Assembly (NCBI GenBank): GCA_022793655.1
Contig: JAAWDG010000001.1
Location: 59,252 to 123,251 of the forward strand
Origin: Clostridiales bacterium
GTDB taxonomy: Bacteria; Bacillota; Clostridia; Oscillospirales; CAG-272
Direction of reading: 5' to 3'
DNA: 64,000 bases
In this document: positions 7,060 through 35,309 of the stretch, piece by piece
Numbering within the stretch: the first letter of the stretch is position 1
Layout of the letters: every line of letters starts with the position of its first letter
The notes under the pieces: model-generated
What the model saw: the letters and a program-made list of their open reading frames with translations, nothing else
Told to the model about the DNA's origin: nothing
Database searches by the model: none
Translations under genes and position numbers: made by a program

Positions 7060-7532
7060 GCGGGGGTTCCAACCCCCACACCCCCTGCAACTCAAGTTAA
7101 CCTTTCGGTTAACTTGGAAAAAAGTTTGATCAAAAACCACAAGTTAATCTTCGATTAACTTGGCACGGCTAAATTGACCATACGGTCAATTTGCCTATGC
7201 CACAACGTGTAGCGAAAGTCGTTTGAAACAAAGCAAAGAACCCGCCAGAAAGTAAACAAAAAATCAAAAAAACCGCCCTTTTGTTTCTCAAAAGAAACAA
7301 AATGAGACAAGCGCACAGAGTTACCGCTTATTTCGCCTTAGTCCCTTGTCGTTATCAGAATTGAAAATTTGGGGATTTTTGTGAATGTTGGTACGAGTTG
7401 CTCACTAATTTACTAACAAGTTTTTGTTCATTTGGTGCGTGAGCGAATTGCTCGACTGAGCAATTTGCGTGGCGTGGTTTTGCCCCACTTTTGCGCAAAA
7501 GTGGGTGGGGGTGCGGGGGTGAAACCCTCGCA
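7060..7532 (+). repeat. MITE-like element, copy A-left
   Basis: Bounded by GC-rich terminal inverted repeats (GCGGGGGTTCCAACCCCCACACCCCC ... GGGTGGGGGTGCGGGGGTGAAACCCTCGCA). The interior is a chain of short palindromes (aagttaaccNNNNggttaactt, ttgaccatacggtcaa, tgtttctcaaaagaaaca). Homologous to 29237-29670. Confidence 0.75.
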
Positions 7533-7610
7533 TAAAGATAAAGCATAAAGATAAGACAAAACCCTTGTTGAAACGTAGATGTTATCATACAATTATAGTT
7601 TTTTCTTTCA

Positions 7611-8046
7611 GCAGGGGTTCCACCCCTGCGACCCCGCACGCTTTTAGAAAAAAGCGCGGCAAAACTCGGCGAGGGCAATTGACTATACAGTCAATTGCCC
7701 TATGCCTCAAAGTAATCAAAAAACTTGTTAGGAAATTAGCGAGCGGCTCTCCAGATTGTTTTATAACAAAACCAAGTTTTATGCCCCACTAACGACAAGG
7801 GACTAAGGCAAAGTGAACGGAAAGGCCATTGAAAACCTTTTCTCATTATGTTTCCTTTGAGAAACATAGGGGGGCAGCATTTTTGATTTTTCGTTTACTT
7901 TGTGGTGGGTTCTTTGTTTTGTCTCAAACGACTTTCACTACACGTTGCGGCATAGGCAAATTGACCGCATGGTCAATTTAGCCGTGCCAAGTTTTGCCCC
8001 GCTTTTTTCCAAAAGCGGGTGGGGGTGCGGGGGTGAAACCCTCGCA
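7611..8046 (-). repeat. MITE-like element, copy A-right (inverted relative to A-left)
   Basis: The interior is the reverse complement of 7060-7532, with the same TIR type at both ends. Collinear with 34328-34778. Confidence 0.75.
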
Positions 8047-8117
8047 TAAAGATAAAGACTATACTTATCGTAACTTTTCATCGTGCAGCAATGCCGCAAT
8101 AAATAAAAACATTCTGA

Positions 8118-10979: not shown

Positions 10980-11055
10980 AGGGGTATAGCTCAGTTGGTA
11001 GAGCAGCGGTCTCCAAAACCGCGTGTCCAGAGTTCGAGTCTTTGTGCCCCTGCCA
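10980..11055 (+). tRNA. trnW: tRNA-Trp (anticodon CCA), CCA end encoded
   Basis: Acceptor stem AGGGGTA/TGCCCCT. D-arm AGCTCAGTTGGTAGAGC. Anticodon loop CTCCAAA. T-arm GAGTTCGAGTCTT. Discriminator G plus CCA. Confidence 0.9.
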
Positions 11056-11141
11056 GCGGCAAGTTGCCGCGTCTAAACCCGGATGCAGTTTGCGTTCGGG
11101 TTTTGTTTATTCCACGCGGATGGCGGTATCTGTTACGAAAA

Positions 11142-11178
11142 AGCCTTGCGTTTCTTAGAAACGCAAGGCTTTCTTTTT
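11142..11178 (+). terminator. rho-independent terminator downstream of tRNA-Trp
   Basis: agccttgcgtttc / gaaacgcaaggct stem followed by ttcttttt. An additional hairpin lies at about 11075-11108. Confidence 0.65.
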
Positions 11179-11789
11179 GCTTGATATGTGCTGATTTCGG
11201 GAGATTTCTCGTTGCCCGCACTTGACAACGGCTGCTACCCGCTCCGGCACGGTTACAACCGTACACATAGCGGTTATATGTACAGTAAAGGAATGACGGC
11301 CGCTGAGTTTTAAGAAAAAATGCACAAAAAATAAAATTATTTTCAATGCAATATATATAAAAAATAAAATTTATGCACAAAAAATGAATTTTATTGTTGA
11401 CTTTCTATCGATTACATGATACTATGCGTTCATAACCATTATTTTCCAAAACACGAAATGAATTCTCAAGCGCGCCACATTATACTCTATACTGTGTGCC
11501 TACCCAAACGAATTTTTTGCAGACGCACGGTGAATGTTTTAGCATCACGTGCGTCTGTTTTTTCTATAAAGTTCTTTTAATTTTATGACGCTGACACTTT
11601 AAATTATGTAAATTACTATGAGAAAAAAGGGGTAAATAATATGTTATAGATGCTTTTTTCGCTATATCAAAATGTCGATATTATTTAATAAATCAATCCT
11701 AAATATGTCGAACTATTTTCATCTCCTATGGATGAAGGCCACGTCTTCGAGGATATACGAATACAGCTGGATTAAGAAAGGGAAAAACA

Positions 11790-13166
11790 ATGGATATATT
11801 AAAAAACAATGTTTATAAACCTTCAATGTTTAATCATTTTGTGAATGATCCTGAAAGTGGTGCACTTATTCTCTTCAACTCATACTTGGGGGCAAGTAGC
11901 ATCATGAGTGTTCCTCAATTAAAAAAAGATAAAATCAAAAAATGGTTGGATAATGACTGTGTTTATAAAGAAGCTGTAACAGACGACAGTGATTTTATTA
12001 AACTCTCTCGGATGGGGTATTTTGTTGAAAGCTTGGTTAATGAAAAAGAGCAACGAGATATTTTATTGTCTAAGCTTCGGGACGATCCTACTTTGCGTCT
12101 TGTAATACATACTTCAAAAGCATGCAATTTCAGATGCAAGTATTGTTACCTTCATTTCAAAGATGAATACACACCTGAAGATAATATAAGTCTTGATGTT
12201 CAGGAAGGTATAATCAATTTTGTTAGAGACAATATTCAAAACTTTTCCGCGGTTCATGTTGACTGGTTTGGTGGTGAACCGCTGCTAGCCACCAATACTA
12301 TACAGTATGTATCGGAAAAACTGATAGAGATTTGCCGAGAAGCACACAAACCATATGAGGCAGTAATTACGACGAACGGGTATCTTTTGACGCCAAAAAA
12401 CATAGACCTTCTAATAAAAGCTAAAGTCCGACACTTTGCAATAACAATTGACGGAATCAAGGAGCAACACGATTCGTTTAGAATGCTGAAGAATGGCAGC
12501 GGAACATTCGACAAGATAATATCTAATTTGTTGTATATTCGAGATAATGTTAAAACACGCACGATTTCTATTTCTCTAAGAAGTAATATAACTGTAGATG
12601 CAGTAGAATTATTGAATAAATATTATGAATTCTACAATAAAATGTTTGGGGAGGATTCTCGTTTTTATTTATTTGTGCGACCTGTAAAGGACTTGGGCGG
12701 AGATAGTGTTGCTCAAATAAGTTCCTCATTGTTTCAAAAGAATCAAATTGATTTTAGTGTTGTTTTAGACAAGTTGGGTGGTATTGTAGATAGAATAAAA
12801 TTTGATGCTAACTTTATGGATTTGAATGTGGGCGGGATAAGGTGTTTTGCGAATAATAAAAATAGATATACGGTTGGAGTAGATGGGATGATATCAAAAT
12901 GTGATGAATCCATACCGGAAGTTGGAATTGGCAAATTGGATAAATTCGGCCAAATGCAACTGGATACGCCCAAGCTAAATGAGTGGATGAAACCCTCGCG
13001 AGTCAGTGAGAAATGCGACGAATGTTTCTATAGTTGTTGTTGTTTTATGGATCCGTGTCCCAAATCTCGAGTAAATAGTGGTCAAGAATCCTGCCCTTCA
13101 ACATACAGAGAGATTGATTCACTGATTTTACTTTATGTAAAATCATACCCAATAGAGGTTCTTTGA
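11790..13166 (+). CDS. radical SAM/SPASM-domain peptide maturase
   Basis: CX3CX2C motif (SKACNFRCKYCY). GGEPLL motif (WFGGEPLLA). C-terminal SPASM-type cysteines (CFANNKNRYTVGVDGMISKC ... CDECFYSCCCFMDPCP). AAAGGGA RBS. Confidence 0.88.
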   Translation: MDILKNNVYKPSMFNHFVNDPESGALILFNSYLGASSIMSVPQLKKDKIKKWLDNDCVYKEAVTDDSDFIKLSRMGYFVESLVNEKEQRDILLSKLRDDPTLRLVIHTSKACNFRCKYCYLHFKDEYTPEDNISLDVQEGIINFVRDNIQNFSAVHVDWFGGEPLLATNTIQYVSEKLIEICREAHKPYEAVITTNGYLLTPKNIDLLIKAKVRHFAITIDGIKEQHDSFRMLKNGSGTFDKIISNLLYIRDNVKTRTISISLRSNITVDAVELLNKYYEFYNKMFGEDSRFYLFVRPVKDLGGDSVAQISSSLFQKNQIDFSVVLDKLGGIVDRIKFDANFMDLNVGGIRCFANNKNRYTVGVDGMISKCDESIPEVGIGKLDKFGQMQLDTPKLNEWMKPSRVSEKCDECFYSCCCFMDPCPKSRVNSGQESCPSTYREIDSLILLYVKSYPIEVL

Positions 13167-13259
13167 TTGTATGTACAATCGTTTAATATGACACGAGATA
13201 TAATCACTGAGGTTAGTATTACATAAATTGACAGTCACCTATAAACCATGGAGGGATAT

Positions 13260-13529
13260 ATGAGCCACAATACTTATGACAATATTAAGGAAGAGGTTGT
13301 TAAAATACTGGAGAACAACGGAGTCGTTGTAGAGATGGAAAATGATGGCGATGCTGTTTTGGATATCGCAGCCATTGACTCTATTACGTTTATATCATTT
13401 ATTGTTGACATAGAAAATACATTTGGAATTGCTATTCCCGATGAACTGTTATCTCTTATGATTATACAATCGTTAAATGGTTTTGTTTATGTCTTGAGTG
13501 AGCTGCTAATCGAAAAGCGTGAATATTAA
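13260..13529 (+). CDS. acyl-carrier-protein-like small protein
   Basis: 89 aa, acidic. IDSITFISFIVDIENTFGIAIPDELL matches the carrier-protein helix II region, including the DS(L/I) phosphopantetheine-site pattern. GGAGGG RBS precedes ATG 13260. Confidence 0.75.
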   Translation: MSHNTYDNIKEEVVKILENNGVVVEMENDGDAVLDIAAIDSITFISFIVDIENTFGIAIPDELLSLMIIQSLNGFVYVLSELLIEKREY

Positions 13530-13607
13530 GTCGCACAGCAGCGGATATTCAATCCTAATATTATATTGGGATTCATGTCAAATAAACATAAAGAAAGGAG
13601 ATACACT

Positions 13608-13751
13608 ATGAAAAAGCTTAGAAAACCGACTTCCAAGCGCACGGAAACCCTTAACAAGGTACGTATTCTAGGAACGATGGCGACTTCTGAACCTGGTTCA
13701 AAGTATCAAGGCTGTCAGAATCCTCGTGGCTGTGGCTGCACAGCTTGCTAA
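13608..13751 (+). CDS. RiPP precursor peptide candidate (47 aa)
   Basis: AAAGGAG RBS lies 7 nt upstream of ATG 13608. Sequence MKKLRKPTSKRTETLNKVRILGTMATSEPGSKYQGCQNPRGCGCTAC has a basic leader and four Cys in the last 13 residues. It sits between the maturase genes and the exporters. Confidence 0.72.
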   Translation: MKKLRKPTSKRTETLNKVRILGTMATSEPGSKYQGCQNPRGCGCTAC

Positions 13752-13859
13752 CTAACTGAAGTGGATTGTAAATCGGAGTTTCTCTGACTACCATGGAGGA
13801 ACTCCGGTTGAAATCCTTTATAAAGGTTAAAACATGGAAAATTAATTGTTGGAGCTTAT

Positions 13860-15602
13860 ATGAAAAAACAATTCTCATGTCTTTTATTTTATTTTAAAAC
13901 TATATGGAAAAGAGAAAAACTGATTTTCCTTAATATCGGAATCTCTGTTTTAATCAACACATTTGCTTCATATGTAAATATATATTTTCTTAAATATCTT
14001 CTTGATTTCCTTGAAGCGGGAAAATATTCACATTCGATTCTCTGGACACTATGCTGTTTAGTGGTTATGAATCTAACGTCAAATATCTCAAGTTTGCTGA
14101 ATATCACTGTTTCAAACGCATACTACCGCATAAACACGTATCTTCGTTCCCAGGTTTTGAATATCAGTACTTCAGTCAGATTTGAGGAGATCGAAAATCC
14201 GGATGCACTCAATCATTTCGAACTTGCACACAAATGTGTGAACCAGAATATTCTTTCAAGTTACACACAGGTGCTTATAAGCATAGTGTCATCCGTTTTT
14301 GTTATCGCTGGGACGGTATATATTTCGTTTGAAATCAAATGGTGGATGTCAATCCTGGCTCTTAGTGTAACGGCTATCAATACAGTTTGTAATATTCTTA
14401 TCTCAAAAAACGAGATCGCGCGTTTTCATGAGGAGACCGCAGTGAGTAAGCAGCTCGAATACAGCAGGTTTTGGTTGACTGACATCAGCCGTGCTAAGGA
14501 AGTGCGTACATACACACTCCATAGATATATCGTAAATAAGCTGCGTGAGTATAATGACAAACTTTTTGCATCGCTTCATAAATTCACGAAAAAAAGGAAG
14601 AAGCCGTACCTTGTCATTGAAATAATAAACGCTATTCAATTATTTGCCGTATATTCTTTTTGTGCATATCAAATGGTTTCTGAGGGAATCAGTGCCGGAG
14701 ATTTCATGCTGTATTCGTCGGCAGTGTTTACCTTTGGCGGAGCACTCAACAGCATTACGAATAGCGTGATCAGCTTTTGGAACACAAACAGTTTGATGAT
14801 AACATTGATCAGCGTGTTAGATATTACAAAAAATCTCGAAAAGAGGACATTGTTTGACGAAGAGCTTAAAACGATCGAATTCAGAAATGTATCTTTCTCA
14901 TACAACAGCAGCGACGAAAATGCAATTGAGGACATAAGTTTCACTGTCAATTCAAATGAAAAATTCTCGATTATCGGCGAAAACGGTGCAGGGAAAAGTA
15001 CACTTGTTAAACTGCTTCTCGGAATGTATACTCCGACAAAGGGGGCGATCTTTATTAACGGAAAAATAATGGATCCCGAAAAGTATGACTACACACCACT
15101 GTTCAGTGCTGTGTTTCAGGACTACAAGATATTCAGCTTTACCGTCGAAGACAATATAAAAATGAGCGAAAAAGAACTGAGCGAAGGCGAAAAAGAAAAG
15201 ATTCGTTCTTTGCTCGGTTCTATGGGTATGCAGAGCATAAATACGAACTCATTCATTACACAGACGTTTTCAGATGACGGGATAAACTTTTCCGGAGGAG
15301 AGGCACAAAAGCTTGCCATTGTCCGGGCGCTTTACAAGGATGCGCCGATAATAGTTCTTGATGAACCCACCGCTGCACTCTCGCCCCAGAGTGAGTATGA
15401 GATCTATCAGAACTTCAACGCTCTGACAAAGGATAAAACCATTTTATTTATATCTCATCGGCTGTCAAGCTGCCGAATATGCGATAAGATCCTCCTGCTC
15501 CATAACGGCAGACTGGAGGCGCTCGGTTCTCACGATGAGCTTTTCGGATCCAATGTACTCTATACAGAGATGTTTTCCGCTCAGGCAGAGCTGTTCGGTT
15601 AA
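13860..15602 (+). CDS. ABC exporter, fused permease/ATPase subunit 1
   Basis: N-terminal six-helix TMD. Walker A GENGAGKST, signature FSGGEAQK, Walker B IIVLDEPTAAL. No C39 peptidase domain. Confidence 0.9.
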   Translation: MKKQFSCLLFYFKTIWKREKLIFLNIGISVLINTFASYVNIYFLKYLLDFLEAGKYSHSILWTLCCLVVMNLTSNISSLLNITVSNAYYRINTYLRSQVLNISTSVRFEEIENPDALNHFELAHKCVNQNILSSYTQVLISIVSSVFVIAGTVYISFEIKWWMSILALSVTAINTVCNILISKNEIARFHEETAVSKQLEYSRFWLTDISRAKEVRTYTLHRYIVNKLREYNDKLFASLHKFTKKRKKPYLVIEIINAIQLFAVYSFCAYQMVSEGISAGDFMLYSSAVFTFGGALNSITNSVISFWNTNSLMITLISVLDITKNLEKRTLFDEELKTIEFRNVSFSYNSSDENAIEDISFTVNSNEKFSIIGENGAGKSTLVKLLLGMYTPTKGAIFINGKIMDPEKYDYTPLFSAVFQDYKIFSFTVEDNIKMSEKELSEGEKEKIRSLLGSMGMQSINTNSFITQTFSDDGINFSGGEAQKLAIVRALYKDAPIIVLDEPTAALSPQSEYEIYQNFNALTKDKTILFISHRLSSCRICDKILLLHNGRLEALGSHDELFGSNVLYTEMFSAQAELFG

Positions 15603-15637
15603 TAGGTGTATAATTATGATATTAAGAGGAACGAATT

Positions 15638-17410
15638 ATGGCTTTAGCAGATAAAATAAAAAAAGTTTTCAAGACCTCATTTGAAGTGTCTGCGATGTTC
15701 ATACGGAACTGCAAGAAGCTCTTGCTCTTGGATGTTTTTCTTGGAATCAGCCGAGAGGTAAGACAGCTTATTATAACTGTTCTGCCGTCCATAGTGATTT
15801 GGCTTTGTACAGGTTCCGAATATACTATAGTTTCTTCGGTTATCGCGGCGATGGTTGCAGCAATTGCTGTTCTTGGAATCCTTATCGAGAAAGGTCAGTG
15901 CAATCTGTCGGACAACTCATTGCACGCAACCAATACCCTATACTACTTTTTAAATGGTAAAAATGCTCGTCTTGATTTGAAAGATGCCGAAGACGGTACA
16001 ATAATTGATCAGTACTACAAGGCATTTGATAACATTTACAATTTTAGCGATGTGCATTACAGTATTTTCTGTGTTCTTCTTGGCAAACTGATCTCCTTTG
16101 CTATCATGAGCGCCTTCATTATTTCGGTTGACATCAGATTGTATCCGATCGTACTCGCAGAAAACTTTATCGTTTTGATTATTAAGGCAAAGAAGAATCA
16201 TATTGATCACTCATTTGAAGAGGAAATATCAAAGAATACGAAAAAGGTAAAATACCTCTCGGAGCTTCTTTATGATTTTGAAGCCGGACGTGATCTCAGG
16301 ATTTATAACGGAAATGATATGGTAAGCAACAGATACATGGATGAGCTCCTTCACGCAAGAAGAATTGAGATCAAAAAACAACGTAAGGATTTTCTTATAG
16401 ACCTCGTTATCGGTATTTTGGGACTTGGACAACTATTCCTTATATATCTTCTGGCGATAAACAAATATTTTGTCGGAGGACTTTTGCTCGTAAATTTTAT
16501 TCTGTACGTAAACGCATCCAATCAGATTGCCTCATCTATTTCCGATATTGTGTGGACGGTGAGCGTCCTGCACACTGCCTCGATCTATTATGAGGACTTC
16601 AACAAATATATGGAGCTCGAAGAGACAATTCGCGAAAAAGGAACTGATACTCCTCCTTTGGGAAGTTCTGTGCCATTCATAGAGTTTAGAAATGTCTCGT
16701 TTAAATATCCGAATCAGGAGATCTTTTCATTAGAAAATTTCTCATGTACCATTGAATATGGCGATCATATTTCCATAGTCGGTGACAATGGTGCAGGAAA
16801 ATCAACTTTTGTAAAGCTGCTCCTGAGGCTTTACGAGCCGACAGAGGGTACGATCTATTACAAGGGAAAAGATATCAGGGAATACGATTTTGATTCCTAT
16901 CAGACTGTATTTGCTCCGGTATTTCAGGATTATGTTCTGAACGCTTTCTCGATCCGCGAAAACCTGATTTTCGATTATGACGAAAGAAATGATTTGATAA
17001 AATCTTCGCTTGAAAAAACGGGGATGTATGATAAAATCATGGATGTCGGTCTGGACAGACCGTACAGTCGAAAATTCTTTGAGGATGGTATCGAATTGTC
17101 GGGCGGAGAACAGCAGCGGCTTGTGATCTCACGAGCATACTGTAAGAATGCCGAGGTACTCATACTCGACGAACCGACCGCCGCAATCGATCCGCTCTCA
17201 GAACGCAAGCTGTTTGAGGATGTTTTCAGCAGTATTGGGGAAAGAACGAGCATAATGATATCGCACAGGATGTCCTGTTCAAAATTCTCAAACAGAATAT
17301 TTGTGATGGATCACGGAAAGCTCGTTGAGCAAGGTGCTCACGACAAGCTAATCAATGCAAACGGGTTGTATTCTTTTATGTATCGTCGGCAGGCACAGTA
17401 CTATTCGTGA
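15638..17410 (+). CDS. ABC exporter, fused permease/ATPase subunit 2
   Basis: TMD followed by Walker A GDNGAGKST, signature LSGGEQQR and Walker B VLILDEPTAAID. Probable heterodimer partner of the preceding gene. Confidence 0.9.
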   Translation: MALADKIKKVFKTSFEVSAMFIRNCKKLLLLDVFLGISREVRQLIITVLPSIVIWLCTGSEYTIVSSVIAAMVAAIAVLGILIEKGQCNLSDNSLHATNTLYYFLNGKNARLDLKDAEDGTIIDQYYKAFDNIYNFSDVHYSIFCVLLGKLISFAIMSAFIISVDIRLYPIVLAENFIVLIIKAKKNHIDHSFEEEISKNTKKVKYLSELLYDFEAGRDLRIYNGNDMVSNRYMDELLHARRIEIKKQRKDFLIDLVIGILGLGQLFLIYLLAINKYFVGGLLLVNFILYVNASNQIASSISDIVWTVSVLHTASIYYEDFNKYMELEETIREKGTDTPPLGSSVPFIEFRNVSFKYPNQEIFSLENFSCTIEYGDHISIVGDNGAGKSTFVKLLLRLYEPTEGTIYYKGKDIREYDFDSYQTVFAPVFQDYVLNAFSIRENLIFDYDERNDLIKSSLEKTGMYDKIMDVGLDRPYSRKFFEDGIELSGGEQQRLVISRAYCKNAEVLILDEPTAAIDPLSERKLFEDVFSSIGERTSIMISHRMSCSKFSNRIFVMDHGKLVEQGAHDKLINANGLYSFMYRRQAQYYS

Positions 17411-17466
17411 ACCTATAGTTGCACTTTAAAAGTCGGCTTTTAATGAAGAAAGAGCGGGGATTTTAA

Positions 17467-19272
17467 ATGAATAAGGAATATGATGTTGTTGTGATCGATA
17501 CCGGAGTTGAAAAAGCACATTCCAGATTGGCAAATCATGATATTGAATGCATAAAAATAACAAAAGTAACAGATGGGTTTATAGTGGAAGATTTGTCAGA
17601 TGGCGGAGATGATGTCGGACACGGGACAGCTGTATGTGATATAATAGCATCACATTATAAGGACGTTTCTATTCTTGTAATAAAAGCATTTGATAGCACA
17701 CTTAGTGCAGATGAATCATTGATAGTAGATGTTTTGTATTACATCTATGAAAATATCGCTTGTCGAATTATTAATATGAGTTTGGGGATTTCAATAGAAA
17801 GCGATAAATTGAAAGAAATATGTTATAATTTGGCTAATAAAGGGATTATACTTATAGCAGCATTTGATAATGATGGCTCTATAGCATATCCGGCGGCATT
17901 TGATAGTGTTATTGGAGTAACTTCATGTAACTATTGCACCAGAAATAATGATTATATTATTGTGAACGATCAAAGAGTAAACATCGGAGCTAAAGGGGGA
18001 CTTCAGAAAATAGCATGGAGCGCAAACAGTATATTAGTCGGAGTAGGAGATAGCTATGCTTGTGCACATGTTTCTGGAATAAGTGCAAATTTAATATCCC
18101 AAAGAACGGTTGAAAACAAAGAACAATTAATATGCGAACTAAAAGTACTGCAGGATGAAATCGAAAATAATAAAGTTAACGATCCTGTTCGTTGTAAAAC
18201 CCGGGTGGTCAATTTTAGCAAGGTGGCTTTATTCCCATTTAATAAAGAAATGCACGCTCTTGTTAGATTTTCGGATATGTTGCCATTTACAATTACAGGA
18301 ATTTATGATATAAAATATTCTCCTAATATAGGTGTAACGGCAGAACGACTTTTGAGGCTTAATTCTTCTTCGAAAACAACAATAAGAAATATAAACTCTA
18401 TCAATTGGGATGAAATTGATACATTAATTATTGGCCACACGCGGGATTTGTTTAACAATATTGTGAAGAATAATTCATTGCTCCATCTTTTATTATCTCA
18501 GGCTGAAACACTGAACAAAAATGTATTTTCATTTGATCAGATTCCTAAATCATTTGAGAATGTGCCCAATTTTGTTGCCCCGCCTATTTATAGGAATTAC
18601 GAACCTATTCCTTTTGGAAAACTATATCATATTTCCAAACCGGTTCTGGCTGTTTTTGGAACCGATTCTCAACAAGGTAAATTTTCTCTTCAGTTAGCTT
18701 TGAGAAAAAATCTTTTGTCTCGTGGTTATAAGGTTGGTCAATTAGGAACAGAACCAACAAGTTTTTTGTTTGAAATGGATGAATGTATTCATTTTGGATA
18801 CGATTCGGATTTGAACCCGGTTGGTTTTGAATTTGTGTCATTGGTAAACTCACTTTTAAATAATATATCTAGTCGAAACGTGGATATTATAATTACCGGT
18901 TGTCAATCGTCTACTTTATTGACTAATGAGGGAAATTTAGCATATTATCCTGTTCAACAGATTAATTTTTTATTAGGTACGCTTCCGGATGCTGTTATTT
19001 TGGTTGTCAATCCTGATGACCAAGAAAAGACAATTGATAGGACTATTTCATTTATAGAATCTTGTGTGGAAACAAAGGTTATTGCTATTGTTGTTTTCCC
19101 TATGGAAAAAAATCCTTCTAATAAAAATTTGATCAAAACGCATATTTCAGAAAATTCATATAGCAGCATTAAGAAATCAATGCAAAGTAGATACAATATA
19201 AACGTTTTTATCTTTGATGATGATAATGAAATAAACCAATTAACAGAATTGATTGAAGACTTTTTTGGATAA
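17467..19272 (+). CDS. S8 (subtilisin-like) serine peptidase fused to a roughly 350-aa C-terminal domain of unknown function
   Basis: Catalytic-triad contexts VVVIDTGV (Asp), VGHGTAV (His), NMSLG (oxyanion Asn) and GDSYACAHVSG (Ser). No signal peptide. The C-terminal half contains GTDSQQGKFS, reminiscent of DUF1611-type proteins. Confidence 0.8.
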   Translation: MNKEYDVVVIDTGVEKAHSRLANHDIECIKITKVTDGFIVEDLSDGGDDVGHGTAVCDIIASHYKDVSILVIKAFDSTLSADESLIVDVLYYIYENIACRIINMSLGISIESDKLKEICYNLANKGIILIAAFDNDGSIAYPAAFDSVIGVTSCNYCTRNNDYIIVNDQRVNIGAKGGLQKIAWSANSILVGVGDSYACAHVSGISANLISQRTVENKEQLICELKVLQDEIENNKVNDPVRCKTRVVNFSKVALFPFNKEMHALVRFSDMLPFTITGIYDIKYSPNIGVTAERLLRLNSSSKTTIRNINSINWDEIDTLIIGHTRDLFNNIVKNNSLLHLLLSQAETLNKNVFSFDQIPKSFENVPNFVAPPIYRNYEPIPFGKLYHISKPVLAVFGTDSQQGKFSLQLALRKNLLSRGYKVGQLGTEPTSFLFEMDECIHFGYDSDLNPVGFEFVSLVNSLLNNISSRNVDIIITGCQSSTLLTNEGNLAYYPVQQINFLLGTLPDAVILVVNPDDQEKTIDRTISFIESCVETKVIAIVVFPMEKNPSNKNLIKTHISENSYSSIKKSMQSRYNINVFIFDDDNEINQLTELIEDFFG

Positions 19273-19323
19273 TTCCATTTGATGTTTTAAGTTATTAATC
19301 AATATTTTTTTGGGGAGTCAAAA

Positions 19324-20352
19324 ATGAAAAAGTTACTTTCAATTGAGTATAAACATCTCGTCGATGTGACAGAATGCTGGACGCTTGAAAAATTGTCAAT
19401 TATACAGGCCTCTCCCTTTTCAGAAGATTGGCTTGCTTCACATCTGAATATTATTATGCATTCTGATTACTCGGTGAGTTTTGGAGATTCATATTATAAA
19501 TATTCACCAGCTTATTTTGATGATATTTTGCACGCCAAAGTTATAGATTATTTTCAGAATCAAAATGTGTTAGATATTATTATTGACAATATAAATCAAG
19601 GGAGATATGTCAAGTTTTTTCGATGGTTAATATATGGTTACAATATTGATGAAAAAATAGTTTATGTCTTATTTGAAAAGACTACTCCTGAGGAAAATAT
19701 CATTACTTTTGATGAAGTAGAGACAAGATTTAGAGGGTTTATAAAAGAATTTGGTAAAGAGGACTTATCGAATAGAGATATTAATGCTCGCTTATATGTA
19801 GCAAAACACTTTCAATATCCATTTGTTACTTATGCGATTCGAAAAGATTATTCTGTTGACAATTGCCCATATTCTGCATTAACTAAAATTGACCGAGAAA
19901 TATGGGGGAATAGATTACAGATTACAGGGTGGGATGATACCAATCCTGAGAAAGTTACAATGGTCTATGATGGGATTGCCTGTTTACAAGGTTTGAAAAA
20001 ACAGGTGTTTGCATACACGATGGGCGACACTGCTAATGTTTCGCGATTGGCCCAAACAATAAAGAAGTTACATGAGCATCGATGCCTGTTGCTATTATCT
20101 CTAAATTATATTCGAAAAAAGTGGAAGATAGAGTTAGATTCATGCGATGAATGTATAAAAACATACAGTGCTTGCTGCAATATAGTTGAGCGGTGGTGTC
20201 TTTTAGCTTTAAAATACGAAGCGATATCAGAACCACGGTTGTTGCAAAAAATTCATGATGCAATTGATAAGCAGTTAGAACAAGAAAAACATGCTCTTTT
20301 AGAATTCCGAAAAATAGCCTATGGTTGGTATAACGAACAGAATCTTATTTAA
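19324..20352 (+). CDS. hypothetical 342-aa protein, last gene of the island operon
   Basis: GGGGAG RBS and a long AT-rich ORF co-directional with the cluster. No family recognised by eye. Confidence 0.7.
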   Translation: MKKLLSIEYKHLVDVTECWTLEKLSIIQASPFSEDWLASHLNIIMHSDYSVSFGDSYYKYSPAYFDDILHAKVIDYFQNQNVLDIIIDNINQGRYVKFFRWLIYGYNIDEKIVYVLFEKTTPEENIITFDEVETRFRGFIKEFGKEDLSNRDINARLYVAKHFQYPFVTYAIRKDYSVDNCPYSALTKIDREIWGNRLQITGWDDTNPEKVTMVYDGIACLQGLKKQVFAYTMGDTANVSRLAQTIKKLHEHRCLLLLSLNYIRKKWKIELDSCDECIKTYSACCNIVERWCLLALKYEAISEPRLLQKIHDAIDKQLEQEKHALLEFRKIAYGWYNEQNLI

Positions 20353-20523
20353 TAGTAACATCTTGGGTGTTCGATAATAGATTATTTCAAATCATGTATG
20401 TACACGGCGTGGCATGTGTACCTCACCCAATAAAGCATCATTTGTCGTATGGACTTAAACAAAATCTATTAAAAGCCTTGACACGTGACGATTTTGAGTT
20501 CTGCTGTCGTTTCCTGACATCCA

Positions 20524-20568
20524 CTCCAAAACCGCGTGTCCAGAGTTCGAGTCTTTGTGCCCCTGCCA
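20524..20568 (+). repeat. displaced 3' half of tRNA-Trp (att-like direct repeat)
   Basis: Identical to 11011-11055. No 5' half of a tRNA precedes it. A hairpin terminator follows. Confidence 0.85.
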
Positions 20569-20573
20569 TTAAG

Positions 20574-20610
20574 AAAATCCTTGAAACATCTTGCTTCAAG
20601 GATTTTTTCT
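20574..20610 (+). terminator. rho-independent terminator immediately after the displaced tRNA 3' half
   Basis: aaaatccttgaa / ttcaaggatttt stem followed by a T-run. Probably the original tRNA-Trp terminator. Confidence 0.65.
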
Positions 20611-27587: not shown

Positions 27588-27720
27588 GCGGTGTTCTTCC
27601 TTTCTGCTTTTGATTGCTATATTATATTTTGAAATTATTTGAATCAAATTATGCGATAAAGCTTTTGTTAAAAAACATATAGGTATTATTTATATTGTAC
27701 CATAAAGTCTTAGCTACCAC

Positions 27721-27780
27721 AAAGTTTATCGGTTCCGGCAGAGCCGGAATGTCACCCTTTTGGGTGGCAAGATAAACTTT
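27721..27780 (-). repeat. three-way-junction-forming module in the metY leader
   Basis: On the minus strand: AAAGTTTATC [TTGCCACCC-AAAA-GGGTGACA] [TTCCGGC-TCT-GCCGGAA] CC GATAAACTTT. Related copies at 35504-35563, 36714-36769 and 36827-36876. Confidence 0.6.
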
Positions 27781-27804
27781 AGAAACAAATCTTTGATTTG
27801 TTTC

Positions 27805-27833
27805 ATTATACCACAAAATCAACTTGACTTCAA
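27805..27833 (-). promoter_or_regulatory. sigma-70-type promoter (TTGAAG-17 nt-TATAAT) for metY-metA
   Basis: Reverse complement of 27828-27833 is TTGAAG. Reverse complement of 27805-27810 is TATAAT. The spacer is 17 nt. It lies downstream of the terminator hairpin at 27841-27876. Confidence 0.6.
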
Positions 27834-27885
27834 TATACAAAGTCCCCTGAAGCTGTGCTGGCTGTCGGGGGACTTTTTTAGGGTT

Positions 27886-28326
27886 TTACACTTTGCGTAT
27901 ACCGGCTAAGAGTGTTTTGAACGTAGGAGAAGCTTTGACCTTTTCGATATCGCCGTGGTAAGTGCGGACAGTGACTTCTAATGCCGTACAGCCGGCCACG
28001 CTCGCTTCAATCAACAGCCTCGCTTCATAGATTTGCTCGTTATCATCGCCGTATGTCGCGCAGTGGCCGGCAAGGCCGCCAAACATAACCGTTTCGATAG
28101 GCCGGCAGGTGCCGTAGATGCCCATTTGGGTATCGATGAGCGCTTCTTTGGTGCCCAAATTGTTGGTGTGCACTTTATAGACCACTTGAAAATGCCGGTC
28201 AGGCGAAGTAAACACAAGCGTGTTTTCGGCCGCATCGGCCGAGTCGCCGAGCAGATAATAGTTTTCGGGCACGGTGATTGCTACCCCACTTGTTTCAAAA
28301 CAAGTCTTGTTTTTGAGTAAATACAT
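27886..28326 (-). CDS. hypothetical 146-aa protein
   Basis: AAAGGGG RBS lies inside the end of the upstream gene, and the start is 1 nt after the upstream stop (TGATATG). Its 3' end is duplicated as fragments at 8496-8576 and 35310-35393. Confidence 0.7.
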   Translation of the reverse strand: MYLLKNKTCFETSGVAITVPENYYLLGDSADAAENTLVFTSPDRHFQVVYKVHTNNLGTKEALIDTQMGIYGTCRPIETVMFGGLAGHCATYGDDNEQIYEARLLIEASVAGCTALEVTVRTYHGDIEKVKASPTFKTLLAGIRKV

Positions 28327-29183: not shown

Positions 29184-29236
29184 TTAAAATAAACCCTCGT
29201 TTTAACGGGGGTTTTGTCTTATCTTTTTTCTTCTTT

Positions 29237-29670
29237 GCGGGGGTTCCAACCCCCACACCCCCGCAAACTTTTACGCAAAAGTTTGATCAAAACCCGGCAA
29301 GGCTAAATTGACCATGCGGTCAATTTGCCTATGCCACAATGGGTAGTGAAAATCGTTTGAAACAAAGCAAAGAACCCGCCACAAAGTAAATGAGAAATCA
29401 AAAATGCCACCCTATTGTTTCTCAAAAGAAACAAGATGAGAAAAGGTTTTCAATGGCCTTTCCGCTTGCTTTGTCTTAATCCCTTGTCGTTATTAGAATT
29501 GCAACCTTTGTTTTTTTTGCGAATGTTGGTACGAGTTGCTCGCTAATTTACTAACAAGTTTTCGTTCATTTTGTGCGTGAGAGAATTGACTGCATGGTCA
29601 ATTCTCGTTAGCTGGTTTTGGCCCGCTTTTGCGCAAAAGCGGGTGGGGGTGCGGGGGTGAAACCCTCGCA
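29237..29670 (+). repeat. MITE-like element, copy C
   Basis: Same TIRs and collinear interior as 7060-7532. Confidence 0.75.
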
Positions 29671-29831
29671 TATAGATAAAGTATATTAAAATAAAGTCCT
29701 CGTTAAAACGGAAACGCTGCCATAAATTATTGTTTTTTTCTTCTTAGCAGGGGTTCCGCTCCTACGACCCTTGCTAAGGGAAAGATTATATTTATTGTAA
29801 CTTTAAATCGCACTACAAAGCAAAATAAAAA

Positions 29832-33844: not shown

Positions 33845-34080
33845 ACCCTAACGGGGGCTATTCTTAAAAAGTTTTGGATTAGATTAAAAAAGCAAGAGAC
33901 TTCTATCTCCTGCTTTTTTATTTTGCTTTGTAGTGCGATTTTAAAGTTACGATAAATATAATCTTTATATTTCCCTTTGCAGGGGTTCCACCCCTACGAC
34001 CCCTGCTGAAAGAAAAAACTATAATTTATGACAACATTTCCGTTTTAACGAGGACTTTATTTTAATATACTTTATCTATA

Positions 34081-34176
34081 TGCGAGGGTTTCACCCCCGC
34101 ACCCCCACAAACTTTTGCGCCAAGTTAACCGAATGGTTAACTTGAGTTGCAGGGGGTGTGGGGGCGGCGCCCCTGC
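34081..34176. repeat. miniature derivative of the MITE-like element (two TIRs around one hairpin)
   Basis: tgcgagggtttcacccccgcacccccac...caagttaaccgaatggttaacttg...gcagggggtgtggggg. Confidence 0.6.
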
Positions 34177-34327
34177 TGAAAGAAAAAACTATAATTTATG
34201 GCAACATGTCCGTTTTAATGAGGACTTCATTTTAATATACTTTATCTTTATGCGAGGGTTTTACCCCTACGACTCTCGCTTTTTAAATGAATATCGCTAA
34301 AAAACGAGAAGTTACTTTTTCTTTACA

Positions 34328-34778: not shown

Positions 34779-34868
34779 TGAAAGAAAAAAGATATATAAT
34801 AACTGTTATCTCTATATTGGAACAGCCGGCGCGGGGCTTGGATCCCGCAATAAATAAAAACATTCTGA

Positions 34869-35117: not shown

Positions 35118-35309
35118 CTTTATACCTCCATGTTTTTTGTCGAATATATTTTATATTCTTTTTCACTAATATGATATATGAGAAAATTCTAATATAAAAA
35201 TTGCGTTGTTACTATGAGGTAAAATCATGCGAACAATCATAAAAATCGTAGACAAAACGAGACGCCACAACAGGGCCCCTGCGAGAAGGACAACCTGTTC
35301 ATTTTTTCC

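What the first reader, a model, noticed from the sequence alone, without database searches (positions are those of the whole stretch)
11011..20568. AT-rich tRNA-Trp island carrying a compact, uncharacterised radical-SAM RiPP maturation/export system
About 9.5 kb lies between a complete tRNA-Trp (10980-11055) and an exact 45-nt copy of its 3' half (20524-20568). The stretch from roughly 11.33 to 20.5 kb is conspicuously AT-rich: one sampled line is about one-third G+C, against flanks that look above 50% by eye.

It holds seven co-directional, tightly spaced genes:
- a radical SAM/SPASM enzyme (CNFRCKYC; C-terminal CDECFYSCCCFMDPC)
- an 89-aa acyl-carrier-like protein
- a 47-aa Cys-rich peptide
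- two fused TMD-NBD ABC exporters
- a cytoplasmic S8 protease fusion
- a 342-aa unknown protein

This is RiPP gene-cluster architecture, but I cannot assign it to a chemically characterised class (sactipeptide, ranthipeptide, and so on). From memory, TIGRFAMs/NCBI name a bioinformatically defined set: the radical SAM/SPASM 'Clo7bot' peptide maturase, a 'peptide maturation system acyl carrier-related protein', and TIGR04066-family proteins. I know of no described product for that set. I cannot verify here that this cluster belongs to it.
Basis: partly seen in the sequence, partly recalled or inferred. Interest (0 to 1): 0.88.

Follow-up and report, generated by a model that had tools for sequence, protein, structure and literature searches.

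The report
tRNA-Trp islet with uncharacterised RiPP operon
A 9.5-kb AT-rich insert next to a tryptophan tRNA gene carries an intact seven-gene operon that most likely makes, trims and exports a small cysteine-cross-linked peptide, using a helper module (carrier protein plus protease/P-loop fusion) whose chemistry nobody has yet worked out.

Summary
tRNA-Trp lies at 10980-11055. An exact 45-nt copy of its 3' half lies at 20524-20568. Between them are 9.2 kb at 36% G+C (flanks 47-48%) and seven co-directional intact genes.

The operon is a real radical-SAM RiPP cluster. A 47-aa precursor has a conserved leader and a hypervariable Cys-rich core. It recurs beside homologous rSAM genes down to about 30% identity, together with an ACP-like protein (attachment Ser 19/19), two ABC half-transporters and an S8::DUF1611 fusion.

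None of the proteins reaches the curated cutoff of any NCBIfam family (TIGR04463, CefB, Clo7bot, CcpM/TIGR04068, TIGR04069, TIGR04066, QhpE). It is a sister variant of the bioinformatically defined CcpM system, not a member.

Three new points:
- The 342-aa "unknown" has the fold of CtaG/CcbD carrier-protein-dependent papain-like ligases. It keeps the Cys but lacks the family's conserved His.
- The leader/ACP/S8::DUF1611/ABC module also occurs with an MNIO enzyme instead of an rSAM on a Bacillus mycoides plasmid.
- The six-gene core occurs at about 85% nt identity in three unrelated contexts, two of them beside tRNA-Trp.

No integrase is present. The product chemistry is unknown.

The parts
10980..11055 (+). 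tRNA-Trp (CCA), complete. Left boundary of the insert.
   Evidence: ARAGORN. Rfam tRNA, 62.8 bits.
11011..11055 (+). Left copy of the exact 45-nt direct repeat (3' half of the tRNA; attL-like).
   Evidence: the repeat finder family D1, 100% identity.
11056..11310 (+). tRNA-proximal segment of normal G+C (50%) with two terminator-like hairpins (11075-11103, 11140-11172). It is shared at about 80% identity with related genome L010, which carries a different cargo.
11320..11391 (+). Three copies of a 19-nt A-rich repeat (ATGCACAAAAAATAAAATT) at the start of the AT-rich DNA. Function unknown; possibly an operator or UP-like region.
   Evidence: the repeat finder families D2/D3.
11397..11566 (+). 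Promoter-like site (TTGACT-17-TACTAT, with TG), then a structured stretch of about 130 nt that ends in a strong hairpin plus T-run. It is conserved in L010 and L001-L004, which all lie beside tRNA-Trp, and absent from L223. No Rfam match.
   Evidence: (z = -3.1).
11790..13166 (+). Radical SAM/SPASM-type peptide maturase (458 aa). The roughly 100-aa N-terminal extension is presumed to bind the leader.
   Evidence: Pfam Radical_SAM, 67 bits. Best NCBIfam match is TIGR04463, 157 bits against a cutoff of 525. Best PDB match is CteB 5wgg, E 3e-21. C112/C116/C119 and the seven C-terminal Cys are invariant in 40 homologues.
13260..13529 (+). ACP-like carrier protein (89 aa). Ser41 is equivalent to the phosphopantetheine-attachment Ser36 of E. 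coli AcpP.
   Evidence: Pfam PP-binding, 23.5 bits (gathering score 20.8). Weak matches to NCBIfam ACP models. The Ser is conserved in 19 of 19 cluster-linked homologues. GGAGG Shine-Dalgarno.
13608..13751 (+). Precursor peptide, 47 aa: MKKLRKPTSKRTETLNKVRILGTMATSEPGSKYQGCQNPRGCGCTAC. It has a conserved leader and a Cys-rich core that ends in Cys.
   Evidence: AGGAG Shine-Dalgarno. Homologous or analogous small ORFs occupy the same position in L001-L009, L055-L073 and L223, with leader MKKxLKKP...LY and variable cores.
13860..15602 (+). ABC exporter half-transporter 1 (TMD-NBD, 580 aa). No C39 peptidase domain.
   Evidence: Pfam ABC_membrane and ABC_tran. NCBIfam MsbA-type and bacteriocin-exporter-type matches, all below cutoff.
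15638..17410 (+). ABC exporter half-transporter 2 (590 aa). Presumed heterodimer partner of ABC1.
   Evidence: The pair is conserved in relatives.
17467..19272 (+). Cytoplasmic fusion protein. The N-terminal half is a QhpE-like S8 serine protease (about residues 1-230) with no signal peptide or propeptide. The C-terminal half is a DUF1611 / TIGR04066-like P-loop protein (about residues 250-601).
   Evidence: NCBIfam QhpE, 127 bits against a cutoff of 165. TIGR04066, 65-68 bits against 200, aligned over the full model. Pfam S8 and DUF1611. D11/H52/S196/N135 and P-loop G398..G404-K405 are invariant in 45 homologues. AF2 model pLDDT 89. Foldseek matches 2g0t/2obn (TM 0.70-0.72) and subtilisins.
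19324..20352 (+). 342-aa protein with the CtaG/CcbD/AziU3-like fold (papain-like, carrier-protein-dependent ligase). Cys18 is retained. The family's conserved His-Glu is replaced by Phe99-Arg100.
   Evidence: AF2 model pLDDT 82. Foldseek PDB top hits are CtaG, CcbD (including complexes with PCP) and AziU3/U2, E about 6e-4, TM about 0.5 over the full length. Family of 741 representatives. Cys 95% and His 91% conserved among 123 full-length members. No Pfam, NCBIfam or PDB sequence hit.
20524..20568 (+). Right copy of the 45-nt repeat (attR-like partial tRNA-Trp 3' half).
20574..20610 (+). Hairpin plus T-run immediately after the right repeat. Probably the original terminator of the tRNA gene.
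   Evidence: Read directly from the sequence. Inference only.

Best explanation
An integrase-less genomic islet, inserted at or recombined into the 3' end of tRNA-Trp, carries a horizontally mobile six-gene RiPP cassette plus a variable seventh gene.

Proposed pathway:
1. The 47-aa precursor is bound through its conserved leader (MKKLRKP...KVRILG).
2. The rSAM/SPASM enzyme introduces cross-links that involve the four Cys of the C-terminal core. These are most likely Cys-to-carbon thioethers, as made by CteB, PapB and QhpD.
3. The cytoplasmic QhpE-like S8 domain removes the leader.
4. The DUF1611-type P-loop domain fused to that protease, together with the holo-ACP-like protein, carries out a carrier-protein-dependent step coupled to cleavage. 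My best single guess is capping or acylation of the newly exposed N-terminus.
5. The two ABC half-transporters export the product.
6. The seventh protein is a CtaG-like fold that has lost the catalytic His. It probably acts as a non-canonical or non-catalytic partner of the carrier protein.

Shown here:
- gene content, motifs and folds
- conservation of the precursor and of the module
- mobility of the cassette

Inferred:
- the thioether chemistry
- the cleavage site
- any acyl transfer
- the bioactivity of the product
For: Island:
- tRNA, 45-nt exact repeat and a 36% versus 47-48% G+C contrast.
- The block 11773-19301 recurs at 82-85% nt identity in L001 (next to another tRNA-Trp, with different flanks) and in L223 (IS66/HTH_7 context).
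- Related genome L010 has a different AT-rich cargo at the same tRNA-Trp, plus an extra 18-nt copy of the tRNA 3' end.
- Related genome L215 lacks the islet at its tRNA-Trp.

RiPP logic:
- The order rSAM / ACP-like / small ORF / ABC / ABC / S8::DUF1611 is conserved from 96% down to about 30% rSAM identity.
- Precursors share a leader but not a core, and 10 of 13 end in Cys.
- The rSAM cluster Cys and the seven SPASM Cys are invariant. The nearest solved structure is the thioether-forming CteB.

Processing and export:
- The S8 triad is intact and there is no signal peptide. The S8 domain is QhpE-like.
- QhpD/QhpE/QhpF use the same order: rSAM thioethers, then cytoplasmic S8 leader removal, then an efflux ABC transporter (PMC7876137).

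Carrier step:
- The ACP Ser is conserved 19/19 and the P-loop is invariant.
- The C-terminal half of the fusion has the DUF1611 fold.
- S8 and TIGR04066 are separate genes in CcpM clusters but fused here.
- The U342 family has the CtaG/CcbD fold, and members sit beside PP-binding and AMP-binding genes.
- The same leader/ACP/S8::DUF1611/ABC module serves an MNIO enzyme in Bacillus mycoides p479.
- The product of a CcpM-type cluster, SacP23, had a blocked N-terminus (PMC10731318).
Against: - No protein reaches any curated family cutoff.
- The generic SPASM HMMs miss the C-terminal domain, and the last Cys spacing is X4 rather than X3.
- No integrase or other recombinase lies in or near the islet.
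- The first ~500 nt after the tRNA are shared with L010 at core-genome divergence. The left end may therefore be old or native rather than newly inserted.
- The window's CtaG-like protein lacks the family's His. The equivalent gene is absent (L001, L005) or unrecognisable (L223, L009) in relatives.
- Nothing shows that the ACP is loaded or what it would carry.
- No acyl-activating enzyme or PPTase is in the operon.
- The blocked N-terminus of SacP23 has other possible causes and comes from a different, only distantly related cluster.
Confidence: 0.68

Rival explanations
1. The ACP-like protein and the DUF1611 domain have no acyl chemistry. They act as a leader-binding adaptor or chaperone (an RRE substitute) that presents the precursor to the protease and the exporter. 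The CtaG-like protein is an immunity or scaffold factor.
For: - The module is tied to a conserved leader and is independent of the core-modifying enzyme, working with either an rSAM or an MNIO.
- There is no adenylating or acyl-activating gene in the operon.
- The window's CtaG-like protein lacks the His, and the Bacillus one lacks the Cys.
- The window ACP-like protein matches canonical ACP models only weakly.
Against: - The phosphopantetheine-attachment Ser is conserved 19/19.
- The P-loop residues are invariant across 45 fusions.
- Most members of the U342 family keep Cys and His and sit with carrier proteins.
Confidence: 0.3
2. The rSAM does not make thioethers. It makes a different cross-link or modification, for example a C-C cyclophane, epimerisation, or a C-terminal Cys transformation, so the product would be a chemically new RiPP class.
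For: - The rSAM is below the cutoff of every thioether family: PapB 115/340, SCIFF 85/425, CcpM 97/500.
- It also matches cyclophane-forming families (YhhB, GrrM) and DynA.
- The core has few acidic acceptors.
- 10 of 13 cores end in Cys.
Against: - Cys is the only feature common to all cores.
- The best-matching families all act on Cys-rich peptides (TIGR04463, CefB, Clo7bot, PapB).
- The nearest solved structure is CteB.
Confidence: 0.2
3. The region is not an inserted mobile islet. It is an old, vertically inherited variable locus downstream of tRNA-Trp. The 45-nt repeat is a relic of an unrelated earlier event, and cargo is exchanged by homologous recombination through conserved flanks.
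For: - No integrase is present.
- The tRNA-proximal ~500 nt are shared with L010 at about 80%, the same divergence as the core genes.
- L010 and L001 show no matching far-end repeat.
Against: - The repeat is exact over 45 nt and brackets exactly the AT-rich DNA.
- The same cassette lies beside a different tRNA-Trp in unrelated flanks in L001, and inside IS-rich DNA in L223.
- L215 lacks the segment at its tRNA-Trp.
Confidence: 0.25
4. The operon matures a protein-derived cofactor or a signalling peptide for the cell's own use, by analogy with QhpC, rather than a secreted antimicrobial.
For: QhpD/E/F-like logic, and the S8 domain is closest to QhpE.
Against: - No dehydrogenase or other client genes are present.
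- The cores are hypervariable between relatives, as expected for diversifying secreted products.
- The cassette is mobile.
Confidence: 0.1

Closest known systems
CcpM-type 'Cys-rich peptide' maturation system (NCBIfam TIGR04068 rSAM, TIGR04069 ACP-related protein, TIGR04066 protein, plus S8 protease and ABC exporter). Examples are the Roseburia intestinalis L1-82 cluster and the Paenibacillus polymyxa SacP23 cluster.
   Same: - Same parts list: rSAM, ACP-related protein, TIGR04066-like protein, subtilase, ABC exporter and a small Cys-containing precursor.
- The TIGR04066 model aligns end to end with the C-terminal half of the fusion.
- ACP-like proteins of relatives give weak TIGR04069 hits.
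- The product chemistry is also unsolved there.
   Different: - The rSAM scores 97 bits against a cutoff of 500.
- The window ACP gives no TIGR04069 hit.
- The TIGR04066 score is 65-68 against a cutoff of 200.
- S8 and TIGR04066 are fused into one 601-aa protein here.
- There are two ABC half-transporters here.
- There is an extra CtaG-like gene here.
Quinohemoprotein amine dehydrogenase maturation (QhpD rSAM/SPASM, QhpE subtilisin-like leader peptidase, QhpF efflux ABC transporter)
   Same: - The order of events and the compartment match: cytoplasmic rSAM thioether formation on a leader-bearing peptide, cytoplasmic S8 leader removal, then ABC export.
- The S8 domain's best NCBIfam match is QhpE, with full model coverage.
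   Different: - Both proteins are below cutoff (QhpE 127/165; QhpD model 75/453).
- The substrate is a 47-aa free peptide, not an enzyme subunit.
- There are no qhpABG genes.
- The ACP-like, DUF1611 and CtaG-like parts have no Qhp counterpart.
Ranthipeptide/SCIFF and sactipeptide maturases (PapB, CteB, AlbA-type)
   Same: - rSAM with an N-terminal extension and a C-terminal seven-Cys auxiliary-cluster domain.
- Cys-rich core.
- CteB is the best PDB match.
   Different: - Below all cutoffs (PapB 115/340, SCIFF 85/425, RumMC 68/720).
- The precursors are unrelated to SCIFF.
- The accessory genes differ.
CtaG / BtrH / AsbE / CcbD papain-like carrier-protein-dependent amide ligases
   Same: [quoted passage not shown]
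- A Cys at the start of the first helix.
- A carrier protein encoded nearby.
- Family members are found with PP-binding and AMP-binding genes.
   Different: - Under 12% sequence identity, with no sequence-level hit.
- The window protein has Phe in place of the conserved His.
- The context is a ribosomal peptide operon, not a thiotemplated non-ribosomal pathway.
MNIO (DUF692) RiPP clusters, here the Bacillus mycoides p479 locus
   Same: - Same leader motif (MKKxLKKP...LY).
- Same PP-binding protein, S8::TIGR04066 fusion, ABC exporter and a distant U342-like last gene.
   Different: The core-modifying enzyme is an MNIO (BufB/HvfB-like, 231/310 bits) with a partner protein, instead of an rSAM.

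Membership tests
CcpM system (TIGR04068/04069/04066) | rSAM reaches the TIGR04068 cutoff (500 bits) | tested here: not met
   97 bits. Relatives score 77-103 bits.
CcpM system (TIGR04068/04069/04066) | ACP-related protein reaches the TIGR04069 cutoff (70 bits) | tested here: not met
   No hit for the window protein even at E<=10. Cluster-linked relatives score 16-24 bits.
CcpM system (TIGR04068/04069/04066) | TIGR04066 protein reaches the cutoff (200 bits) | tested here: not met
   64.6-67.6 bits, although the alignment covers model positions 2-357 of 361.
CcpM system (TIGR04068/04069/04066) | Subtilase and ABC exporter in the same cluster | tested here: met
   Compare.
Clo7bot rSAM (TIGR04334) | Reaches the cutoff (600 bits) | tested here: not met
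   123.6 bits.
TIGR04463 rSAM/SPASM RiPP maturase | Reaches the cutoff (525 bits) | tested here: not met
   156.7 bits; this is the best-scoring family. Relatives score 164-210 bits.
Radical SAM/SPASM peptide maturase (superfamily) | CX3CX2C radical SAM cluster motif | tested here: met
   C112/C116/C119 are invariant in 40 sequences. Pfam Radical_SAM, 67 bits.
Radical SAM/SPASM peptide maturase (superfamily) | Seven-Cys SPASM signature CX9-15GX4C...CX2CX5CX3C...C | tested here: inconclusive
   All seven Cys and the Gly are invariant (C352, G366, C371, C409, C412, C418, C423, C435), but the last spacing is X4. The Pfam SPASM and NCBIfam generic SPASM models give no hit. The C-terminal region shows only weak similarity to CefB and the anaerobic sulfatase maturase.
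Radical SAM/SPASM peptide maturase (superfamily) | Adjacent co-conserved precursor peptide with a conserved leader and a variable core | tested here: met
Ranthipeptide / sactipeptide | Cys-S to C-beta/gamma or C-alpha thioether in the product | not testable with these tools
   Requires MS/MS or NMR. Model scores are below cutoff (PapB 115/340; SCIFF 85/425; RumMC 68/720).
QhpE subtilisin-like leader peptidase | Reaches the cutoff (165 bits); catalytic Asp/His/Ser; cytoplasmic | tested here: not met
   127 bits. The triad D11/H52/S196 is invariant and there is no signal peptide, so it works like QhpE but is not a member.
DUF1611 (PF07755) proteins | Pfam gathering score and fold | tested here: met
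   41.2 bits against 25. Foldseek matches 2g0t/2obn, TM 0.70-0.72 normalised to the target. The P-loop is invariant.
Holo acyl/peptidyl carrier protein | PP-binding domain with the conserved attachment Ser | tested here: met
   Pfam, 23.5 bits against 20.8. The Ser aligned with E. coli AcpP Ser36 is present in 19/19 (the AcpP sequence was supplied from memory).
Holo acyl/peptidyl carrier protein | Actually phosphopantetheinylated and loaded | not testable with these tools
   Needs intact-protein MS.
CtaG/BtrH-like papain-like carrier-dependent ligase | Bipartite papain-like plus helical fold | tested here: met
   Foldseek matches CtaG, CcbD and AziU3/U2, E about 6e-4, probability 1.00, TM about 0.5. 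Fold description from PMC12865890. The model pLDDT is 82 from only 8 sequences.
CtaG/BtrH-like papain-like carrier-dependent ligase | Cys-His-Asp catalytic triad | tested here: not met
   Cys18 is present. The family's conserved His (91% of 123 members) is Phe99 in the window protein, and D107 is Asn.
tRNA-integrated genomic island | tRNA at one end and a direct repeat of the tRNA 3' end at the other | tested here: met
tRNA-integrated genomic island | Deviant composition and variable presence or cargo among relatives | tested here: met
   L010, L215, L001 and L223.
tRNA-integrated genomic island | Integrase or recombinase gene | tested here: not met
   None among the ORFs of the islet or its flanks.

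The most novel reading that the evidence does not exclude
The holo-ACP-like protein, the DUF1611-type P-loop domain fused to the leader peptidase and (in most clusters) a CtaG-like papain-fold ligase form a thiotemplated tailoring station that acts on a ribosomal peptide. It would cap, acylate or ligate the N-terminus released by the fused protease. This would be a portable RiPP/thiotemplate hybrid module that works with either rSAM or MNIO core enzymes, and its product class has never been described.
Probability: 0.25. Interest if true: 0.8.

Novelty: new variant of a known kind. Interest (0 to 1): 0.55.

Why it matters
Radical-SAM RiPPs from anaerobic gut Firmicutes are a large and mostly unexplored reservoir of peptide natural products.

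This cluster belongs to a widespread, unmodelled family. More than 120 protein clusters (90% identity) of the rSAM and more than 120 of the S8::DUF1611 fusion match, nearly all over more than 90% of the query length.

Its accessory module (ACP-like protein, protease/P-loop fusion, often a CtaG-like protein) has been flagged by TIGRFAMs for years but never explained. The same leader and module serve both rSAM and MNIO enzymes. One member of the cluster has the fold of carrier-protein-dependent ligases. Together these give a concrete, testable hypothesis for what the module does.

If a carrier-protein-dependent step on a ribosomal peptide is confirmed, it would add a new tailoring logic to RiPP biosynthesis and a compact six-gene cassette for engineering.

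If the module is only an adaptor, the finding is one more uncharacterised thioether-type RiPP on a small mobile islet.

Tried and rejected
- Exact-protein look-up of the flanking SpoVT gave nothing, so the source genome is not in that index.
- The genome-contig scan with the flanking GH39-like protein found only relatives at or below 83% identity. There was no conspecific genome and no clean empty site.
- Rfam at gathering and E-value thresholds found only the tRNA.
- Viral contigs hold only distant rSAMs (at most about 30% identity over the full length) and no copy of the conserved tRNA-proximal element. A prophage origin is therefore not supported.
- Pfam, NCBIfam and a PDB sequence search on the 342-aa protein gave nothing. 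Only structure prediction plus Foldseek gave a lead.
- I tried to show that the seventh genes of L009 and L223 are the same family. hhalign was weak for L009 (probability 23%) and null for L223 (1%), so no claim is made.
- The rSAM fragment in L215 next to the U342 homologue is not orthologous (22% identity). I rejected the idea that it is a decayed copy of this cluster.
- Literature searches for CcpM, TIGR04463, Clo7bot, OhkG/FlmE, CefB, DUF1611/DgcN and MNIO plus ACP found no paper that describes this module's chemistry.
- From memory, DUF1611 includes an acetyl-CoA-dependent N-acetyltransferase (DgcN). I could not verify this here, so it is not used as evidence.
- No far-end tRNA repeat was found in L001/L002.

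Full report
**Observation**

ARAGORN and Rfam find a single tRNA in the window, tRNA-Trp(CCA), at 10980-11055. Its last 45 nt (11011-11055) recur exactly at 20524-20568. No other long repeat exists in the region.

The DNA from 11311 to 20523 is 36.0% G+C. The flanks are 48.2% and 47.3%, and only 3 of 107 flank 500-bp windows fall as low as the island mean. The 255 nt directly after the tRNA are 50% G+C.

Seven intact, co-directional ORFs fill the AT-rich DNA. Shine-Dalgarno sequences support the 47-aa start of the peptide gene (ATG at 13608, AGGAG) and the 89-aa start of the carrier-protein gene (ATG at 13260, GGAGG). The flanking genes are housekeeping: LrgA/LrgB, SpoVT, a GH39-like hydrolase, an Mbeg1-like protein, and MetA/MetY-like enzymes. 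Neither the flanks nor the insert encode an integrase.

**The enzymes, one by one**

*rSAM (458 aa).* It has Pfam Radical_SAM and significant full-length matches to many rSAM/SPASM peptide-maturase families:
- TIGR04463: 157 bits
- CefB: 133 bits
- FlmE/OhkG: 128 bits
- Clo7bot: 124 bits
- PapB: 115 bits
- CcpM: 97 bits
- SCIFF: 85 bits
- QhpD: 75 bits

All are far below the curated cutoffs of 340-600 bits. Its best solved relative is the thioether-forming CteB (5wgg, E 3e-21). In an alignment of 40 homologues (36-90% identity), the CX3CX2C cysteines and seven C-terminal cysteines with the SPASM Gly are invariant. The last spacing is X4 rather than X3, and the generic SPASM HMMs do not detect the domain.

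*Carrier protein (89 aa).* It passes the Pfam PP-binding gathering score (23.5 against 20.8) and weakly matches ACP models. It gives no TIGR04069 hit. The Ser aligned with the attachment Ser36 of E. coli AcpP is present in all 19 cluster-linked homologues I collected.

*ABC proteins (580 and 590 aa).* Both are TMD-NBD half-transporters without a peptidase domain.

*Fusion protein (601 aa).*
- Its N-terminal part is an S8 protease closest to QhpE (127 bits against a cutoff of 165) and has no signal peptide or propeptide.
- Its C-terminal 350 residues align end to end with TIGR04066 (65-68 bits against a cutoff of 200) and pass Pfam DUF1611.
- In 45 homologous fusions, the triad D11/H52/S196, N135 and a P-loop (G398..G404-K405) are invariant.
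- An AlphaFold2 model (pLDDT 89, pTM 0.84) matches subtilisins with its N-terminal half. Its C-terminal half matches the DUF1611 crystal structures 2g0t and 2obn (target-normalised TM 0.70-0.72).

**The seventh gene**

The 342-aa protein has no Pfam, NCBIfam or PDB sequence match. The word-indexed search found only nine relatives.

An AlphaFold2 model built on eight sequences (pLDDT 82) has an N-terminal alpha/beta domain and a long C-terminal helical region. Foldseek against the PDB returns one coherent set over the full length, at E about 6e-4, probability 1.00 and TM about 0.5:
- CtaG of closthioamide biosynthesis
- CcbD, including its complexes with a PCP domain
- AziU3/U2

CtaG is described as a papain-like, carrier-protein-dependent ligase. 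It has a Cys/His/Asp triad and exactly this bipartite architecture, and BtrH and AsbE are structural relatives (PMC12865890).

A profile search of 1.84 billion representatives finds 741 family members. Among 123 full-length members, Cys18 is 95% conserved and a papain-like H-E-x3-Y-G-Y-D motif is about 90% conserved. The window protein and its closest relatives instead have F99-R100 and N107.

Family members with the His sit directly after PP-binding genes, next to an AMP-binding enzyme (L218-L220). Another sits after an ACP-like gene and two ABC genes (L216).

The fold and the family's link to carrier proteins are therefore supported. The window's own copy fails the catalytic-triad test and may be non-catalytic.

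**Is it a RiPP cluster?**

Homologues of the rSAM are numerous: 2353 hits, with the top 120 all at E below 1e-83. Almost all come from metagenomes and are unnamed.

In every context long enough to judge, the same order recurs: rSAM, ACP-like gene, small ORF, ABC, ABC, S8::DUF1611 fusion. This holds from 86% down to about 30% rSAM identity.

The small ORFs share a leader (MKKxLKKP, about 8-10 residues, then a hydrophobic x-L-Y-like motif). Their Cys-rich cores are otherwise unrelated, and 10 of 13 end in Cys.

All rSAMs from such clusters again score best on TIGR04463, at 160-210 bits, which is below cutoff. Their ACP-like proteins give only 16-24 bits on TIGR04069. This is a distinct family that NCBIfam release 20 does not model.

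**Relation to known systems**

The parts list equals that of the bioinformatically defined CcpM set: TIGR04068 rSAM, TIGR04069 ACP-related protein, TIGR04066 protein, subtilase and ABC exporter. That set has been seen in Roseburia intestinalis and in the Paenibacillus polymyxa SacP23 cluster (PMC4573289 and PMC10731318).

There the subtilase and the TIGR04066 protein are separate genes. Here they are fused, which argues for functional coupling.

The chemistry of that system is unsolved. SacP23 was purified at 3404 Da, Edman degradation failed ("blocked N-terminus"), and its thioethers "remain to be elucidated".

The sequence of events most likely follows the quinohemoprotein amine dehydrogenase pathway. 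There QhpD (rSAM) makes Cys-to-Asp/Glu thioethers on a leader-bearing peptide, the cytoplasmic subtilisin-like QhpE removes the leader, and the efflux ABC transporter QhpF exports the product (PMC7876137).

**A portable module**

A tblastn search of plasmids found full-length S8::TIGR04066 fusions on large Bacillus plasmids. On B. mycoides p479 the fusion is preceded by an ABC exporter, a PGAP-annotated "phosphopantetheine-binding protein" and two identical 44-aa ORFs (MKKALKKPTKVGKEVEETKVTLYMGELGCGTGCTGGVLGRTRGW). These ORFs carry the same leader motif.

The fusion is followed there by an MNIO (DUF692; BufB/HvfB-like, 231 bits), a 247-aa partner and a 326-aa protein. That last protein aligns with the 342-aa family over 290 columns (hhalign probability 82%), including the H-x4-Y-G-F-D motif.

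The leader, carrier protein, protease/P-loop fusion, exporter and (often) CtaG-like gene thus form a module that is independent of the core-modifying enzyme. This ties the module's function to leader handling, cleavage and export rather than to the Cys chemistry.

**Mechanism I commit to**

1. Leader-guided rSAM cross-linking of the four core Cys, most likely as thioethers.
2. Cytoplasmic leader removal by the S8 domain.
3. A carrier-protein-dependent step coupled to cleavage, performed by the fused P-loop domain and the holo-ACP-like protein. My best single guess is capping of the new N-terminus.
4. Export by the ABC heterodimer.

Steps 1, 2 and 4 rest on homology and conserved motifs. Step 3 is inference from four observations: the invariant Ser and P-loop, the gene fusion, the carrier-linked CtaG-like family, and the blocked N-terminus of SacP23. 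I give step 3 roughly 0.3. The main rival, at about the same probability, is that the ACP-like protein and P-loop domain act as a non-catalytic leader adaptor.

**The islet**

The six-gene block (window 11773-19301) occurs at 82-85% nt identity in two other settings:
- L001-L004: it lies downstream of a tRNA-Glu/Met/Trp array and upstream of cotJ, catalase and dnaX. There is no seventh gene, and an IS element sits between the peptide gene and ABC1.
- L223: it lies in IS66/HTH_7-rich AT-rich DNA with a different seventh gene.

Two related genomes share the window's flanks at about 80% identity:
- L010 has tRNA-Trp followed by a different AT-rich cargo (AAA ATPase, ABC exporter and two unknown proteins; 28-37% G+C). 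It also has an extra 18-nt copy of the tRNA 3' end about 165 nt downstream.
- L215 lacks all of this at its tRNA-Trp. It carries a separate AT-rich cassette with a 50%-identical homologue of the 342-aa protein on the other side of the GH gene.

The tRNA-Trp 3' end is therefore a recurrent target, and the cassette is mobile. However, no integrase is present in any of these loci. The first ~500 nt after the tRNA are shared between the window and L010 at core-genome divergence. That stretch includes a promoter-like site plus a structured, terminator-ended element of about 130 nt, which L001-L004 also carry. The left end may be an old backbone with exchangeable cargo. A clean empty site was not found.

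**Verdict**

The cluster is a member of none of the named families. The recalled TIGRFAM set conflated Clo7bot with CcpM. The "island" lacks a recombinase.

It is a new variant of a known kind: an rSAM RiPP operon, sister to the uncharacterised CcpM system.

Interest is moderate. Uncharacterised rSAM RiPP clusters are common in gut Clostridia. The portable carrier-protein/protease-P-loop module and its link to CtaG-like ligases nevertheless turn a long-standing "known unknown" into something directly testable.

Noticed in passing
window 11397-11566 (also L010 13441-13560, L001 about 870-1060, L003 about 158): A conserved promoter-like site (TTGACT-17-TACTAT) is followed by a structured stretch of about 130 nt that ends in a strong hairpin plus T-run (MFE -32.6 kcal/mol, z = -3.1). 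It occurs in three genomes, always between tRNA-Trp and the AT-rich cargo, whatever the cargo. It is absent from L223 and from viral contigs, and has no Rfam match. It could be a small RNA or a leader belonging to the islet backbone.
   Followed up: partly
L010 9200-14950: A related genome has a different AT-rich cargo at the same tRNA-Trp (AAA_15/21 ATPase, ABC exporter, and 132-aa and 215-aa unknown proteins). It also has a second, 18-nt copy of the tRNA 3' end at 14691-14708, followed by DNA homologous to window 11056-11245. This suggests nested insertions at this tRNA.
   Followed up: partly
L217 (Bacillus mycoides plasmid p479, NZ_CP036025.1 about 452.7-459.7 kb): This is an MNIO (DUF692) RiPP-like cluster. 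It uses the same leader motif, PP-binding protein, S8::TIGR04066 fusion and ABC exporter, plus a distant homologue of the 342-aa protein. PGAP annotates the fusion only as 'S8 family serine peptidase' and the precursors as hypothetical.
   Followed up: partly
L218-L220 (Logan contigs with P0248): A His-containing member of the 342-aa family lies in a small thiotemplate-like set: PP-binding (91 aa), AMP-binding enzyme, PP-binding (119 aa), then the CtaG-like protein. The family has about 741 representatives and no Pfam model.
   Followed up: partly
L215 6300-10300: A related genome carries a separate AT-rich cassette between the Mbeg1-like gene and the GH39-like gene. It holds a LytTR regulator, a 52-aa ORF, a non-orthologous 298-aa rSAM, a 160-aa ABC ATPase and a 50%-identical homologue of the 342-aa protein. 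In the window that position is a 156-bp intergenic gap.
   Followed up: partly
L001/L002 3407-4441: An IS element (DDE_Tnp_IS240/IS66-type transposase) is inserted between the precursor gene and ABC1 in the 86%-identical cluster. This probably uncouples export from maturation in those strains.
   Followed up: no
window about 7413-8063, 27690-27968, 29219-29694, 34057-34820, 35143-35472: A repeated intergenic sequence of about 130-450 bp occurs in several copies in the window. It also occurs in L010 and L215, where it lies upstream of metY/metA-like genes. It showed up as multiple BLAST hits. There is no Rfam hit at the gathering threshold.
   Followed up: no
contig of P0042 (DNA not available): Two related clusters lie about 6 kb apart on one contig. 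One is a shorter set (391-aa rSAM, 82-aa ACP-like protein, 60-aa ORF, one ABC) and the other is the full set. Each is preceded by Peptidase_S24 and GNAT genes, and a Phage_rep_org_N gene lies between them.
   Followed up: no
window 11320-11391: Three copies of a 19-nt A-rich repeat (ATGCACAAAAAATAAAATT; spacing 33 and 20 nt) lie exactly where the G+C content drops.
   Followed up: no
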